Assembly: GCA_965285935.1 (NCBI GenBank) | Contig: OZ260661.1 | Coordinates: 93,062,001 to 93,126,000 of the forward strand | Length of the DNA: 64,000 nt | Source: Ophelia neglecta | Taxonomy: Eukaryota | Direction of reading: 5' to 3' | Part shown: in pieces, positions 1 to 27,000 of the stretch | How positions within the stretch are numbered: position 1 is the first letter of the stretch | Layout of the letters: every line of letters begins with the position of its first letter | Position numbers: made by a program

Positions 1-3000
1 TCTCGCGGAGAGCCCGGACCCGCCGGCCCAACCGGCGAGAGGGGCGAATCTGGTTTACCAGGTCCTTCGGGACCAGCTGGACCCTCGGGACCGGCCGGCT
101 CCCCCGGACAAAGAGGAGAACAAGGACCAAGAGGAGAATCGGGAACTCCAGGACCATCTGGTACGTACATTTAAAGCTGGAATTAGAGATTTGATAGAAT
201 TATTAAACGATACAATATCTTCGGTATTTAATTATTCGCGGCAAATAATGGCGAACACTTTATTATTTCAGGATCTCCCGGTCAACCCGGACCGTCAGGA
301 TCTCGAGGTGAACCAGGACCCGCAGGACCACAAGGTCAAAGGGGTCAATCTGGTGAACGAGGTGAAACAGGACCGGCTGGTCCCTCCGGACCCTCAGGTC
401 CTGCTGGACCCGCTGGTGAAAGGGGAGAACCAGGCCCTGCCGGGTCACAAGGACCAAGCGGATCAAGGGGAGAGCCAGGTCAAGCCGGAGAGGCTGGAAG
501 ACCAGGCCCACAAGGGCAATCTGGATTCCCTGGACCTGCTGGACAAAGAGGCGAGAGCGGGCTTCCTGGCTCACCCGGGCCACAAGGACCAAGAGGTGAA
601 ACAGGTACAGCAGGAAGTGTCGGGGAACAAGGACCGCCAGGTCCCGCTGGATCTAGAGGAGAGTCAGGACCCGCTGGAACACCTGGCTCAAGGGGAGAAA
701 CTGGTCCCCAGGGACCTGCAGGAGAACGTGGAGAGCCCGGACCATCCGGACCCGCAGGTCCCTCTGGGCAAGCTGGACCCTCTGGGCCAGCCGGTCCCAG
801 AGGAGAGGCTGGTCCCCGGGGAGAATCGGGTACGCCAGGATCTTCTGGACAAAGAGGAGAGCCAGGAACAGCTGGTCCACGAGGAGAAGCAGGACCCCAA
901 GGTCCACAGGGCGCAAGAGGCGCTCCCGGTGAACGAGGAGAGTCAGGTACCCCAGGCTCTGCCGGCCAACGAGGAGAATCAGGACCACAGGGTCCAACAG
1001 GCCAATCAGGTCCTTCCGGACCTGCCGGACCCCCTGGACCAAGAGGTGAGACAGGACAAAGAGGTGAAAGCGGACCTCAAGGACCAGCAGGAACTCCAGG
1101 AGAGCGCGGAGAAAGCGGTCTAACAGGACCATCCGGTCCTGCTGGCCCAGCTGGTGAATCCGGAAGGCCAGGAGAACAAGGATCGCCAGGACCTTCAGGT
1201 AGGCTCATCTGTCGATAGTATTCTCTTCTTTGTTTCTTTCAATAGTTAACCTTCATTGACCATATAACATACATAAAATGTTTGGATAACATGGGATAAA
1301 CGCAATTTTGTAGGAGGACCTGGCCCAGCTGGCCCTGCTGGAAGCCGCGGAGAATCTGGCCTACCAGGACCCTCAGGTCCGAGAGGTGAGGCAGGAACTC
1401 CAGGAAGCCCAGGACAGCGAGGAGAACCAGGACCTGCAGGACCTAGTGGCCCAGCAGGAAGTCAAGGACCATCTGGGCCGGCTGGTTCCCCAGGGCCCAG
1501 AGGAGAGCGAGGCGAAACTGGTCCCGCCGGACCTGCAGGTAATTTCATGACCGGTCATTTGCGTACTTTATCTTCCCAATTGTTTATGCATTTGTCATTA
1601 GCTTTGAATCTTAGATAAATTATTGCAGCCTTTTATTGTTTACAAACTGAGGAACGGGTGATGAAATAATAAGAAGACAAATTTCATATTTACGGTAGAT
1701 ATGTCATTTTGCAAAAGCAAAAGTCTAAAAAGTGCCCTTGTCTGTATATTAAAGGAGAGTCAGGATCCCCTGGTCCAGGAGGAGAGAGGGGAGAGCCAGG
1801 ACCAGCAGGACCCAGTGGACCAGCAGGTCCCCGCGGTGAAGCAGGCCCTGCAGGGCCAAGTGGATCAAGAGGCGAGTCCGGACCAGCTGGACCAGCTGGA
1901 CCATCTGGACCTGCCGGTCAACGAGGCGAACCTGGACCCAGAGGAGAAGCTGGACCTCGTGGAGAGTCTGGAACTCCAGGAACACCAGGAGAGAGGGGAG
2001 AACCTGGTCTGTCAGGTCCAACCGGACAGCCAGGCCCATCTGGACCAGCTGGGCCTGCCGGCCCACGCGGTGAATCTGGACCCCGAGGAGAATCTGGCCA
2101 ACCAGGCCCATCAGGGCCGGCTGGACCCGCCGGCCCCGCCGGACCTAGAGGAGAGGTTGGACCACCAGGACCAGCAAGCCAAAGAGGAGAGCCTGGTGCT
2201 AGAGGTCCGCCGGGAGAGGCAGGTACCCCAGGAAGCGCTGGAGAGCGAGGCCCACAAGGTCCTCGAGGACAACCTGGCCCAAGTGGCCCGGCTGGTTCAA
2301 GAGGAGAAGCAGGAACACCAGGCGGACAAGGTCCCAGAGGAGAGGCCGGAACCCCAGGATCCCCAGGTACGTCATTTCACGAAAAAAATTGGACACTAAT
2401 AATGATTGTCAAGTAAGAACTATTTTTCATGTGTTTTGAAGGCCAATTTCTACATACGATTTTTATATGACTGGCAGGATCTGATGGAAGCCCAGGACCT
2501 GCAGGCCCTCGTGGAGAATCAGGAACTCCGGGAGGTGCAGGAGAGACTGGACCAGCTGGACCTTCTGGACCAGCTGGACCTGCTGGACCTCGTGGTGAGC
2601 CCGGAACACGTGGAGAGCGAGGAGAGGTTGGACCTGCTGGGCCTAGCGGACCAGCTGGACCTCGTGGAGAAACCGGACCTGCCGGCCAAAGTGGCCAGCC
2701 AGGACCTCGTGGTGAAACTGGTAAGTCCAGTCATTGGTTATAACGAAATAGACAAGCATTAACCTCCTTTTACACTTTACATAGTGATATGGTGAATGAT
2801 GTAGACGCTTTTGAGTCGGTATTTTAGGAAAACATTTATTTTTATGTTTAAAATTACAAAAGATAGATGTCTTGATATGATTTTGCGTCTATTTACAGGA
2901 TCCCCTGGACCTAGCGGACAATCTGGTCCTAGTGGACCAGCTGGACCATCGGGACCATCTGGGCAACCAGGTCAACCAGGATCAAGAGGAGAACCTGGAC

Positions 3001-24000: not shown

Positions 24001-27000
24001 AGGCCCTGCAGGGCCCACGGGAGAAACCGGACCAGCAGGATCACCTGGCGAACCTGGACCTTCCGGCCCACGTGGAGAAGCCGGCCCAGCTGGACCTTCA
24101 GGACAGAGAGGCGAGCCCGGGTCACCTGGGCCGCGTGGAGAGGCAGGACCAGCAGGTCCTTCAGGACCCCTTGGACAATCAGGACCACCAGGTCCAATTG
24201 GTGAATCAGGTCCTCGTGGACAACCAGGATCGAGAGGAGAAACTGGACCAGCTGGAGAACCAGGTTCGTAAAATATACTATATATTTTATAATATATAAA
24301 ATAATGAGATAATTGAAATAAATTGTTGCAGAATAATTTTATATGATCACGCTATTGTAGCATGGTATGAAGCAAATTCTATGTTTTATTTTATTATAGG
24401 TCCGGCGGGACCAAGTGGCCCATCTGGACCAAGAGGTGAATCTGGACCACAGGGACCAAGCGGTCCTTCTGGAACACCTGGCACACGAGGAGAGATTGGA
24501 CCACCAGGACCAAGCGGACAGCGCGGAGAAAGAGGACCAGCAGGAGAGGCTGGACCACAGGGTCCATCTGGATTAGCCGGACCACGTGGCGAGGCAGGGC
24601 CTTCCGGACCTTCAGGTCCTTCAGGTCCTTCAGGAGAACCTGGATCACCTGGACCTCGCGGCGAGCCAGGTCCATCAGGACAGACCGGACAACCTGGCCC
24701 TGCAGGTCAACCTGGCCCACGAGGAGAACCAGGGTCAAGAGGAGAATCTGGACAACGTGGACAATCTGGACCACCTGGACCAAGAGGTGAATCTGGCCCA
24801 CAAGGACAATCTGGCCCACCAGGGCCCTCGGGACCTTTGGGACCATCAGGACCTCGAGGAGAACCTGGACCAGCCGGACCAGGATTACCAGGACCTGCAG
24901 GTCCACGAGGAGAGTCTGGACCTCCTGGCCCAATAGGTTCGTACTTGCACCTGCTTTTTTTGTATATTTCAGAGGTTTGTTCTTGTATAAGGTATTTTTT
25001 CTCATATTGAAATGTAAACCCGATTTGTACAGTTAATAAATGGCCTTAAACATAATTTTTCTTAATTCTCACACAGGTCCATCAGGCCCATCTGGCCCAT
25101 CCGGACCACGAGGTGAATCTGGACCACCGGGTCCAGCTGGACAACCAGGACCTCTAGGACCATCAGGACAAAGAGGAGAACCAGGAAACAGAGGACAGTC
25201 AGGTCAACGTGGAGAAGCTGGTCCTCCTGGAGAATCCGGCTTGCCAGGACCAAGTGGTCCAAGAGGCGAGTCTGGACCACCAGGAACACAAGGAAACCAA
25301 GGACCTCCCGGACCACTCGGAGAAGCCGGCCCTGCTGGCCCCATCGGACAACGAGGTGGGCCTGGTCCAAGTGGACCACGAGGAGAAAGTGGCCCAAGCG
25401 GACCACCTGGCCAGAGTGGACCCCGAGGCAACGCTGGTGAACGAGGATCACCTGGAGAAGCCGGACCAGCAGGCCCAGCTGGACCACGTGGTAATCCAGG
25501 TTCTATTGGAACCCGAGGAGAAAGAGGACCACCAGGATCAATGGGACAGTCTGGTCCCCCAGGACCATCAGGCCCGCTCGGACCTGCTGGACCACCCGGC
25601 CCACGAGGTGAATCAGGTGGCTTGGGAGAACCGGGTCCTGCTGGACCCCCTGGCCCACTTGGCCGACCTGGTCCACAAGGACCATCTGGTCCATCTGGTC
25701 CCAGAGGAGAACCAGGACCGAGCGGACCATCTGGACAGGCTGGATTCCAAGGACCACGAGGTGAACCTGGAGAATCTGGACCACCAGGGCCGAGAGGAGA
25801 GAGTGGACCACTTGGTCCATCTGGCCCACCCGGAACAAGAGGAGAATCCGGACCACGAGGTGAACCTGGTTTACCAGGTCCCAACGGCCCAGCGGGAGGA
25901 ACAGGACCAAGCGGTCCCCCCGGACCATTAGGAGGACCTGGCCCATTGGGTCCACGAGGTCCATCAGGAGAAAGAGGCCCACAGGGTCCGAGCGGCCCAA
26001 GAGGAGAACCAGGACCTCCCGGACCATCAGGACAGTCAGGTAACCAAGGTCCTCCAGGACCACTAGGACCAATAGGACCACCAGGTCCACTTGGCGAAAG
26101 AGGAAACGCAGGGCCACCAGGGTCACAGGGTGAATCTGGTGACCCCGGAACTCAAGGACCTGCTGGTCCACCAGGACCGAGAGGGCCAAGCGGAGAACGA
26201 GGACCAGCTGGCGGAGTTGGTCCACCAGGAACCAGAGGAGAGTCAGGTCCACCTGGACGACCTGGGTCCACAGGAGCACCAGGTCCACTGGGAGGTAGAG
26301 GGCCACGCGGACCTATTGGACCATCTGGTCCTCTAGGAAGAACTGGAGAAAGAGGTGGACCAGGCGAGTCCGGACCAGCGGGATCACCTGGCTCCAACGG
26401 CCCACCCGGCCCCAGTGGACAGAGGGGACAACCGGGACCACCAGGAACAAGAGGTACAGCTATTTCAAAGTATAAACGTGTCGTTTAATGCCATTACAAT
26501 TATCAATAATTTCGAAGAAATTCTGGCTTAGTAACAAGTGGGAAAGAATCGTAACATAGGGACCCTGTATAACATTAGTTAAACCTGTATTTATAATGTA
26601 TATAAACAACTCGTGTTTGCATTGTGTAGGAGGTGACGGCTTGCCAGGAGGACCCGGACCTAATGGCAGACCAGGAGCGACTGGATGGACAGGTGCCCGA
26701 GGAGGAACCGGCTCTTCCGGATTCCCCGGACCATCTGGTCAGCGAGGTTTAGCCGGACCATCTGGTCCTCCAGGAGAGCAAGGTTTGCCTGGAGAAGATG
26801 GTCGCCGTGGAACCAACGGCCAACCCGGCGCAAGCGGACGCCCAGGTAAACACGGAAAATCTGATTTCTCCGAAGTAGAATAGGTTTTAATTGCAATGTC
26901 TGGTAATATTATGAGTAACAAGAACAGTATCATAATCTAAATTGATTCCCTACGGTAAAAATAATAAAATGGCAAGTAAGATTGATAACAATGACTTTGC

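What the first reader, a model, noticed from the sequence alone, without database searches (positions are those of the whole stretch)
1..24936. Atypical triplet code: Pro mainly in X ([12 protein letters not shown]), Arg-Gly-Glu charge pairs, and no Lys or Cys seen
Seen: the helix uses a small vocabulary ([33 protein letters not shown]). GPP is rare in this region. Arg sits mostly at Y, usually followed by Gly-Glu. I saw no Lys or Cys, and no RGD despite abundant RGE, in the in-frame translations. Established: earthworm cuticle collagen carries 4-hydroxyproline largely in X (Gly-Hyp-Ala/Ser), unlike vertebrate collagens, and lysyl-oxidase cross-links need Lys. Inference: this is a substrate for an X-position prolyl hydroxylase, stabilised by Arg/Glu pairs and assembled without Lys cross-links in the helix.
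Basis: partly seen in the sequence, partly recalled or inferred. Interest (0 to 1): 0.68.

Follow-up and report, generated by a model that had tools for sequence, protein, structure and literature searches.

The report
Giant annelid-type cuticle collagen gene
The region is the 3′ part of a huge collagen gene of the kind that builds worm cuticles; its odd, lysine-free amino-acid pattern is real, but the proline bias is already described for such collagens.

Summary
Positions 1-24936 (+ strand) are exactly 37 exons of one collagen gene: 6,388 residues and 2,120 clean Gly-X-Y triplets. Pro is at X in 876 triplets and at Y in 498. GPP occurs 20 times against about 206 expected. Arg is at Y 469 times and at X 38 times, and Gly-Glu follows 413 of the 469. 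There are 0 RGD, Lys, Cys, His, Met, Trp or Tyr. Chance, base composition and recent duplication do not explain this.

The gene continues to about 28.4 kb. Exon 38 is GPP-rich, four short exons are rich in Thr at Y, and a phase-compatible last exon may encode a transmembrane helix and an acidic tail.

It matches the giant annelid collagens (7,719-8,859 aa) published in 2025, where the earthworm protein shows the same X-biased Pro. LC-MS work already reports high X-position 4-Hyp in earthworm cuticle collagen.

Possibly new: the complete lack of Lys, His and Cys, GPP kept to the C-terminal end, and the possible membrane anchor. The organism and direct homology stayed unchecked.

The parts
1..160 (+). 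Exon 1 (open at the window's 5' end; the gene starts upstream of the window)
   Evidence: Gly-X-Y frame, donor G|GTACGT
272..24936 (+). Exons 2-37 of the main triple helix: 272-1198, 1314-1538, 1755-2366, 2478-2720, 2899-3159, 3267-3995, 4103-4615, 4726-5166, 5278-5790, 6062-6970, 7124-7564, 7672-8022, 8184-8444, 8559-9017, 9140-9562, 9718-10326, 10421-10735, 10858-11289, 11484-11816, 11979-12518, 12638-13537, 13643-14047, 14228-14695, 14804-15388, 15496-16098, 16382-16840, 17186-17905, 17994-18587, 18700-19293, 19384-19842, 20038-20811, 21141-21590, 21965-22675, 22867-23478, 23661-24263, 24400-24936
   Evidence: Every exon starts after AG with the 2nd base of a Gly codon and ends with the 1st base of a Gly codon before GT (phase-1 introns). 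Lengths are multiples of 9 nt except exons 17 and 37, which hold a 2-residue register break. Introns are 88-374 nt; intron GC 0.32 against exon GC 0.64. Pfam Collagen PF01391 E = 7e-55 and 6e-52 for the two exons scanned out of these 36.
25077..26453 (+). Exon 38: 459-residue uninterrupted helix with a different vocabulary (GPP 21 of 153 triplets; more Leu, Ile, Asn); candidate C-terminal nucleation module
   Evidence: Pfam Collagen E = 1e-69. Its donor AGAG|GTACAG is the weakest of 42 (1.9 bits). Reading through it would reach a stop at 26486-26488.
26630..26845 (+). Exon 39 (72 aa collagenous)
   Evidence: AG acceptor, G|GTAAAC donor, phase 1; Pfam Collagen E = 1.5e-14 on the enclosing ORF
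27003..27101 (+). Exon 40 (33 aa; Thr at Y in 8 of 11 triplets)
27280..27387 (+). Exon 41 (36 aa collagenous)
27619..27741 (+). Exon 42 (41 aa; Thr at Y in 8 of 13 triplets; ends GAGFL)
   Evidence: donor CTCG|GTAAGA 6.0 bits
27898..28418 (+). Putative last exon (tentative): short juxtamembrane stretch, one hydrophobic helix, RRIRR, a 118-aa acidic Ser-rich tail, stop at 28416-28418
   Evidence: Phase-1-compatible acceptor after a pyrimidine tract. It is the best of 45 AGs scanned (5.9 bits) and the only phase-compatible one among the top 8. Kyte-Doolittle 19-residue maximum 2.25. GC 0.57 against 0.33-0.35 in the flanks. AlphaFold2 single-sequence model: helix 7-57, mean pLDDT of 10-residue blocks up to 88, overall mean pLDDT only 57. 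It could instead be a separate small gene, because an ATG lies 2 nt after the acceptor.

Best explanation
The finding is the 3' part (at least 7,029 collagenous residues in 42 exons, about 2.0 µm of triple helix at 0.286 nm per residue) of a giant collagen gene. It is the kind known from annelids, where such chains build the non-banded cuticle fibres.

Shown here:
- The helix is written in a very small triplet vocabulary.
- Most triplets carry exactly one stabilising device. X-Pro alone occurs in 656, Y-Pro alone in 478, Y-Arg alone in 269 and X-Pro with Y-Arg in 200; X-Pro with Y-Pro occurs in only 20.
- Half of the remaining 'bare' triplets (244 of 497) are Glu-X triplets placed directly after a Y-Arg.
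- Lys, His, Cys, Met, Trp and Tyr are excluded throughout, although 19% of codons are one mutation away from Lys.
- The exons are old and diverged. The pattern is therefore kept by selection, not by copying.

Inferred:
- X-Pro in GPA, GPS, GPR and GPQ is 4-hydroxylated, as measured in earthworm cuticle collagen, and Y-Pro is hydroxylated in the ordinary way.
- Y-Arg and R-G-E ion pairs supply further interchain stability.
- Without Lys or Hyl, no lysyl-oxidase cross-links can form in the helix.
- GPP is kept out of the 1.8 µm body of the helix and concentrated at its C-terminal end (exon 37: 4 of 59; exon 38: 21 of 153). Three chains would then nucleate once, in register, at the C-terminus and zip towards the N-terminus.
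For: - Gene anatomy: all 42 modelled donors are G|GT and all 41 acceptors AG|, with no stop in 7,029 codons.
- Pfam Collagen on all 7 collagenous pieces scanned.
- Counts and tests.
- No recent duplication.
- GPP gradient: 16 of 2,061 triplets in exons 1-36, 4 of 59 in exon 37, 21 of 153 in exon 38.
- Literature: annelid cuticle collagens have a very long triple helix and globular domains (PMC11766948, passage).
- Giant annelid collagens of 7,719-8,859 aa are reported. By the pattern GxxGXYGxxG, the Eisenia andrei protein scores G-P-Y 0.403 and G-X-P 0.215 (PMC12403961, section 12 and Table 1). The same pattern on exons 1-38 here gives 0.430 and 0.229.
- Xaa-4Hyp is especially high in earthworm cuticle collagen (PMC8233474, passages).
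- X-position imino acids here amount to 137 per 1,000 residues. That is above the 70.2-112.8 range PMC8233474 reports for 24 species; Y is 78 per 1,000, inside their 67.8-110.5 range.
- Collagen folding starts from a C-terminal nucleus (PMC11923368, abstract).
Against: - The organism is not identified.
- 'Cuticle' rests on length class and composition only.
- Hydroxylation cannot be read from DNA.
- PMC8233474 found no positive correlation of Xaa-4Hyp with melting temperature.
- The N-terminal part of the gene lies outside the window, so Lys or Cys may occur there.
- The donor after exon 38 is the weakest in the gene, so the chain may end at 26488, and the downstream exons may be an alternative 3' end.
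- The nucleation role of the GPP-rich end is inference only.
Confidence: 0.7

Rival explanations
1. Same gene, but X-Pro stays unhydroxylated. An ordinary Y-specific collagen prolyl 4-hydroxylase acts on GEP, GTP, GSP and GQP. The helix relies on X-Pro, Y-Hyp, Y-Arg and charge pairs, much like bacterial collagens. The 'atypical code' is then a matter of degree.
For: X-Pro is common in every collagen, and Y imino content here (78 per 1,000) is inside the normal range (PMC8233474). Bacterial collagen-like proteins without Hyp are attributed to X-Pro plus about 22% charged residues (PMC11923368, discussion passage). Here Arg plus Glu make up 16.5% of residues.
Against: Published LC-MS finds abundant Gly-4Hyp-Yaa in earthworm cuticle collagen (PMC8233474). 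The title of Goldstein & Adams 1970 (seen in a reference list only) names Gly-Hyp-Ser. This applies only if the window is from such a worm.
Confidence: 0.2
2. It is a giant collagen but not the secreted cuticle fibre protein. It would be a membrane-anchored epidermal collagen (type I topology), or the cuticle collagen is first made as such a precursor.
For: A phase-compatible last exon with a strong hydrophobic helix, RRIRR and an acidic tail. No signal peptide or start for a separate collagenous gene was noted when reading the 139 nt between the stop at 26486-26488 and exon 39. No COLFI, C4 or C1q domain in 36 + strand ORFs of 30 aa or more between 26.4 and 30.3 kb.
Against: There are no RNA data. 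An ATG 2 nt after the acceptor would allow an independent 172-aa gene. The acceptor score (5.9 bits) is below the gene's median (9.6), and one of 83 background AGs reaches 8.2. The AlphaFold2 model has low overall confidence. The Atlas hits are all below 0.9 and are leads only.
Confidence: 0.35
3. Assembly artefact or dead gene: a collapsed or expanded repeat, or a pseudogene, that only looks like one giant open gene.
For: PMC12403961 itself warns that repetitive collagens may be misassembled.
Against: There are no N. Every exon and intron is unique: 76% or less exon-to-exon identity and 0 intron-to-intron hits. There is no stop or frameshift in 42 exons, and all splice sites are canonical.
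Confidence: 0.03

Closest known systems
Giant annelid collagens listed in the Alvinella pompejana genome paper (PMC12403961, Table 1), e.g. Eisenia andrei GWHPACBE014886 and A. pompejana APscaff0012.353.p1
   Same: Length class: 7,719-8,859 aa published, at least 7,029 aa here with the 5' end missing. Pro more frequent at X than at Y: 0.430/0.229 here against 0.403/0.215 for E. andrei by the same pattern count.
   Different: The paper reports only X/Y Pro fractions. It does not report the Lys/His/Cys-free helix, R-G-E coupling, GPP depletion, exon structure or C-terminus.
Earthworm cuticle collagen as a protein (LC-MS of Taga et al., PMC8233474; Goldstein & Adams 1970, title seen in a reference list only)
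   Same: The sequence offers 822 GPA, GPS, GPR and GPQ triplets, the contexts in which Gly-4Hyp-Yaa was found biochemically.
   Different: Hydroxylation is not visible in DNA. The earthworm's numbers are in supplementary tables that I could not open.
Riftia pachyptila cuticle collagen (glycosylated Thr at Y; Mann et al. 1996, known here only through citing passages)
   Same: The four short exons 39-42 have Thr at Y in 22 of 60 triplets.
   Different: In the main helix, Thr is at Y in only 49 of 2,120 triplets. Stability there must rest on Pro/Hyp and Arg rather than on Thr.
Vertebrate-type fibrillar collagens
   Same: Collagen triple-helix repeat (Pfam PF01391). Glu prefers X and Arg prefers Y.
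   Different: No COLFI domain was found downstream. The helix is about 7 times longer. GPP is 0.9% of triplets and there is no Lys. Introns split the Gly codon (phase 1). From recall only: vertebrate fibrillar genes use intact-codon exons derived from 54 bp, and GPO makes up about 10% of triplets.
[quoted passage not shown]
   Same: A collagen with a membrane span, if the last exon belongs to the gene.
   Different: MACITs are type II proteins with an N-terminal cytosolic domain and membrane span. Here the span would be C-terminal (type I), and the helix is vastly longer.
Bacterial collagen-like proteins (Scl2, EPclA; PMC11923368, discussion passage)
   Same: X-Pro and charged residues are used as stabilisers.
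   Different: This is a eukaryotic gene with 42 modelled spliceosomal introns. Its Y-Pro content (23.5%) fits a hydroxylating organism.

Membership tests
Collagen triple-helix repeat proteins (Pfam PF01391) | Repeated Gly-X-Y scoring above the Pfam gathering score | tested here: met
   183, 174 and 230 bits (cut-off 27.2) for exons 2, 22 and 38; 54 and 28 bits for the ORFs holding exons 39 and 42; 26 and 27 bits, just under the cut-off, for those holding exons 40 and 41.
Giant annelid (cuticle-type) collagens | One very long, almost uninterrupted triple helix (published chains 7,719-8,859 aa) | tested here: met
   6,847 residues in exons 1-38 with only 6 small register breaks; 7,029 residues with exons 39-42. 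This is a lower bound because the 5' end is outside the window (PMC12403961).
Giant annelid (cuticle-type) collagens | Pro fraction at X higher than at Y, as in the earthworm member | tested here: met
   0.430 against 0.229 by the paper's own pattern, compared with 0.403 and 0.215.
Giant annelid (cuticle-type) collagens | Sequence homology to a named member; source organism an annelid | not testable with these tools
Giant annelid (cuticle-type) collagens | Made by epidermis and located in the cuticle; 4-Hyp at X | not testable with these tools
   Needs expression data and mass spectrometry.
Fibrillar collagens (COLFI clade) | C-terminal fibrillar collagen propeptide domain (Pfam COLFI) | tested here: not met
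   No such hit in 36 + strand ORFs of 30 aa or more between 26400 and 30300 at E up to 0.1.
Nematode cuticle collagens | Short interrupted Gly-X-Y blocks flanked by conserved Cys (PMC11766948, passage) | tested here: not met
   0 Cys in 7,029 collagenous residues; blocks of up to 459 residues.
MACIT transmembrane collagens | Type II topology: N-terminal cytosolic domain and membrane span | tested here: inconclusive
   The N-terminus is outside the window. The only predicted span is C-terminal and its link to the gene is unproven.

The most novel reading that the evidence does not exclude
The giant cuticle-type collagen is made as a type I membrane protein. A C-terminal membrane span, short Thr-rich collagen segments and a GPP-rich 459-residue module hold three chains together at the membrane. 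They form the single in-register nucleation site of a 2 µm helix. GPP is otherwise selected against tenfold in that helix, so that no second, out-of-register nucleus can form. The same helix is purged of every nucleophilic or oxidisable side chain (Lys, His, Cys, Met, Trp, Tyr). That makes a body surface that cannot be cross-linked enzymatically or by chemicals in the environment.
Probability: 0.25. Interest if true: 0.7.

Novelty: new member of a known kind. Interest (0 to 1): 0.4.

Why it matters
Annelid cuticle collagens are the longest triple helices known in animals. How three chains of about 8,000 residues with a nearly uniform repeat find the right register, and what holds the helix together with little Gly-Pro-Hyp, are open questions.

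This window gives an exon-level view of about 2 µm of such a helix. It shows three testable rules: one stabiliser per triplet, GPP confined to the C-terminal end, and total exclusion of Lys, His and Cys. It also shows a possible membrane anchor.

The X-biased Pro itself is already published, so that part only confirms known biology.

Tried and rejected
- Chance or base composition as the cause of missing Lys, His and Cys: rejected. About 65, 147 and 40 are expected from position-specific nucleotide frequencies, and 0 are observed.
- Recent tandem duplication as the cause of the small vocabulary: rejected.
- Long-range charge periodicity within exons (lags up to 120 residues): none found. The only signal is a short-range alternation, with Arg depleted at lags 3 and 9.
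- Minus-strand long ORFs across the exons: mirror images of GGN/CCN, 6 blocks and 111 aa against 67 blocks and 6,924 aa on the + strand.
- Tail ORF: Pfam found nothing above cut-off, and Ntox50 at E = 0.073 is taken as chance. PDB sequence search gave only E of about 0.9 to alkaline phosphatase. Atlas hits are all 0.81 or lower; they are single-pass membrane proteins and count as leads only.
Old papers on earthworm and Nereis cuticle collagen are held only as abstracts and reference lists, so no published amino-acid composition could be compared. One search was too broad and gave nothing useful.
- No listed or read result of these searches gave the exon structure, a Lys-free sequence, GPP depletion or a membrane span for annelid giant collagens. 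Subscription-journal papers (Gaill 1995, Mann 1996, Kimura & Tanzer 1977) are not in the library.
- The bacterial genome-contig scan, the phage, plasmid and E. coli collections, the RNA tools and complex prediction were not used, because they do not bear on a eukaryotic collagen gene.

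
Full report
**What is there**

The window (64,000 nt, no N) has G+C of 0.53-0.61 per 2 kb up to about 26 kb and 0.37-0.43 beyond 28 kb. The + strand of the GC-rich part is filled with Gly-X-Y reading frames broken by short AT-rich gaps. A strict pattern finds 67 blocks (6,924 aa) on the + strand and 6 blocks (111 aa) on the - strand. The long - strand ORFs are therefore mirror artefacts.

Each block begins right after an AG, with the second base of a Gly codon. Each ends with the first base of a Gly codon followed by GT. 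All introns are thus phase 1 and split a Gly codon.

I modelled 38 exons up to 26453.
- All 38 donors are GT, and the 37 introns are 88-374 nt with a median of 122 nt.
- Exon G+C is 0.64 and intron G+C is 0.32.
- Exon lengths are multiples of 9 nt except exons 17 and 37, each of which holds a two-residue register break.
- The donor of exon 37 is at 24936, which is exactly the end of the finding.
- Exon 1 is open at the window's 5' end, so the gene begins upstream.

**Check of the observation**

All counts were made exon by exon and summed. I did not build, search or fold a joined (spliced) protein. Tests that need the whole chain, such as a whole-protein search or periodicities longer than one exon, were therefore left out.

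Exons 1-37 give 6,388 residues, 2,120 clean triplets and six interruptions. Four interruptions have Ser in place of Gly, and two are two-residue breaks.
- Pro is at X in 876 triplets and at Y in 498. X exceeds Y in 37 of 37 exons.
- GPP occurs 20 times against 205.8 expected from independent X and Y (p = 3e-102).
- Arg is at Y 469 times and at X 38 times. Glu is at X 542 times and never at Y.
- Within exons, 413 of 469 Y-Arg are followed by Gly-Glu. RGD is absent because Asp occurs at X once.
- Lys, Cys, His, Met, Trp and Tyr are all 0, and Phe is 1.
- Position-specific nucleotide frequencies would give about 65 Lys, 147 His and 40 Cys.
- In exons 1-38, 1,286 of 6,847 codons are one substitution from Lys.

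The vocabulary is not a by-product of recent repeats.
- The best exon-to-exon DNA identity over 150 nt or more is 76%.
- Introns share no detectable similarity.
- No 18-residue word occurs more than four times.

'Mainly in X' means 64% of the prolines.

**How the helix is written**

Most triplets carry one stabilising element:

| Element in the triplet | Triplets (of 2,120) |
|---|---|
| X-Pro only | 656 |
| Y-Pro only | 478 |
| Y-Arg only | 269 |
| X-Pro with Y-Arg (GPR) | 200 |
| X-Pro with Y-Pro (GPP) | 20 |
| None ('bare') | 497 |

Of the 497 bare triplets, 244 are Glu-X triplets directly after a Y-Arg. The longest run without an imino acid is five triplets.

Arg avoids neighbouring triplets: it is depleted at lags 3 and 9 and at baseline at lags 6 and 12. 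No longer period appears within exons.

X-position imino acids amount to 137 per 1,000 residues and Y-position ones to 78. Across 24 species, PMC8233474 reports 70.2-112.8 at X and 67.8-110.5 at Y (passage). Here X is therefore above that range and Y is inside it.

**The 3' end**

Exon 38 (25077-26453, 459 residues, no interruption) changes vocabulary. GPP makes up 21 of 153 triplets, against 16 of 2,061 in exons 1-36 and 4 of 59 in exon 37. Leu, Ile and Asn are also more frequent.

Four short collagenous exons follow, at 26630-26845, 27003-27101, 27280-27387 and 27619-27741. They have the same split-Gly, phase-1 design. Thr is at Y in 22 of their 60 triplets, and they still have no Lys, Cys or His.

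A further ORF (27898-28418) can be joined in phase.
- It lies behind a pyrimidine tract and an AG. That AG is the best of 45 scanned and the only phase-compatible one among the top eight. Its score of 5.9 bits compares with a range of 2.6-15.3 for the gene's own acceptors and a 95th percentile of 3.1 for background AGs, though one background AG reaches 8.2.
- It encodes about 30 residues, then a hydrophobic helix (Kyte-Doolittle 19-residue mean 2.25), then RRIRR and a 118-residue acidic, Ser-rich tail with net charge -13.
- A single-sequence AlphaFold2 model gives one long helix (residues 7-57). The mean pLDDT of 10-residue blocks reaches 88, but the overall mean is only 57.
- Pfam, PDB and the Atlas gave no family. 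All Atlas hits score 0.81 or lower and are single-pass membrane proteins, which I take only as leads.
- No COLFI, C4 or C1q domain is present in 36 + strand ORFs between 26.4 and 30.3 kb.

Three caveats apply to this 3' model.
- The donor after exon 38 is the weakest of the 42 (1.9 bits). Reading through it would end the chain at 26488, although no AATAAA or ATTAAA follows within about 200 nt.
- Reading through the donor after exon 42 would end the chain at about 27792.
- The tail ORF has an ATG two bases after its acceptor, so it could be a separate small gene.

I put the odds that the membrane-span exon belongs to this gene at roughly even.

**What it is**

The length class, the near-continuous helix and the X/Y Pro fractions match the giant annelid collagens reported with the Alvinella pompejana genome (PMC12403961, section 12 and Table 1).
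- That paper reports proteins of 7,719-8,859 aa in alvinellids and a similar one in the earthworm Eisenia andrei.
- Its authors note a much higher share of Pro at X in the earthworm protein (G-P-Y 0.403, G-X-P 0.215). The same pattern count on exons 1-38 here gives 0.430 and 0.229.

A review states that annelid cuticle collagens have a very long triple helix with globular domains, and that Riftia's is stabilised by glycosylated Thr (PMC11766948, passage). LC-MS work reports that 4-Hyp at X is especially high in earthworm cuticle collagen, with abundant Gly-4Hyp-Yaa peptides (PMC8233474, passages). The title of Goldstein & Adams 1970 names Gly-Hyp-Ser; I saw it only in a reference list.

I therefore read the locus as a member of this known kind. 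Several things remain unchecked.
- I could not identify the organism or align to the published proteins.
- The earthworm values of PMC8233474 are in supplementary tables that I could not open.
- Old composition papers are held only as abstracts and reference lists.

**Mechanism**

Three things are shown: the sequence rules above, their maintenance in diverged exons, and the absence of any Lys to cross-link.

The rest is inferred.
- X-Pro in GPA, GPS, GPR and GPQ is probably 4-hydroxylated and Y-Pro hydroxylated as usual.
- Y-Arg stabilises the helix. PMC8233474 cites host-guest work in which Gly-Pro-Arg is comparable to Gly-Pro-4Hyp. R-G-E pairs may add interchain contacts.
- That X-Hyp itself stabilises is not supported. 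PMC8233474 found no positive correlation with melting temperature.
- GPP is excluded from the body of the helix and concentrated at the C-terminal end. Collagens fold from a C-terminal nucleus (PMC11923368, abstract). Together these suggest that the design prevents out-of-register nucleation in a 2 µm, nearly uniform repeat. This is my inference and is untested.
- From recall only: earthworm cuticle collagen is O-galactosylated on Ser and Thr, and Ser and Thr are abundant here. Vertebrate fibrillar genes use intact-codon exons derived from 54 bp.

**Novelty and verdict**

Several features appeared in none of the papers that my ten searches listed or that I read:
- the total exclusion of Lys, His, Cys, Met, Trp and Tyr
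- the tenfold GPP depletion with a GPP-rich C-terminal module
- the R-G-E rule
- the split-Gly exon design
- a possible C-terminal membrane span

That library lacks the key subscription-journal papers. I rate the locus as a new member of a known kind, of moderate interest.

Noticed in passing
window 25077-26453: Exon 38 of the collagen gene lies outside the finding's coordinates. It is a 459-residue uninterrupted helix with GPP in 21 of 153 triplets, against 0.8% in exons 1-36. Its donor site is the weakest of the gene, and reading through it would stop at 26486-26488.
   Followed up: partly
window 26630-27741: Four short collagenous exons with the same phase-1 split-Gly design. Thr is at Y in 22 of 60 triplets, reminiscent of the Thr-rich Riftia cuticle collagen. 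Trp, Phe and Tyr appear, but still no Lys, Cys or His.
   Followed up: partly
window 27898-28418: GC-rich ORF (0.57 against 0.33 in the flanks), joinable in phase to the collagen. It encodes a hydrophobic helix, RRIRR and a 118-aa acidic Ser-rich tail. It is either a C-terminal membrane anchor of the giant collagen or a separate 172-aa single-pass membrane protein. No family was found in Pfam, PDB or the Atlas.
   Followed up: partly
window 33784-39044 (+): LINE-like retrotransposon with two long intact ORFs. ORF1 (581 aa) has no Pfam hit. ORF2 (1,176 aa) has an endonuclease/exonuclease/phosphatase domain and a reverse transcriptase domain.
   Followed up: partly
window ~30000-47200 and ~51800-64000 (-): Tandem segmental duplication carrying exons of a malate/L-lactate dehydrogenase family 2 (Ldh_2) gene on the minus strand. 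Matching blocks are 73-98% identical. The LINE sits inside copy A.
   Followed up: partly
window 1-26000 (-): Many long open frames on the minus strand across the collagen exons. They are mirror images of the GGN/CCN repeat and not genes.
   Followed up: yes
window 59291-59694: Low-complexity stretch that translates as repeated short motifs on both strands; probably a simple repeat.
   Followed up: no
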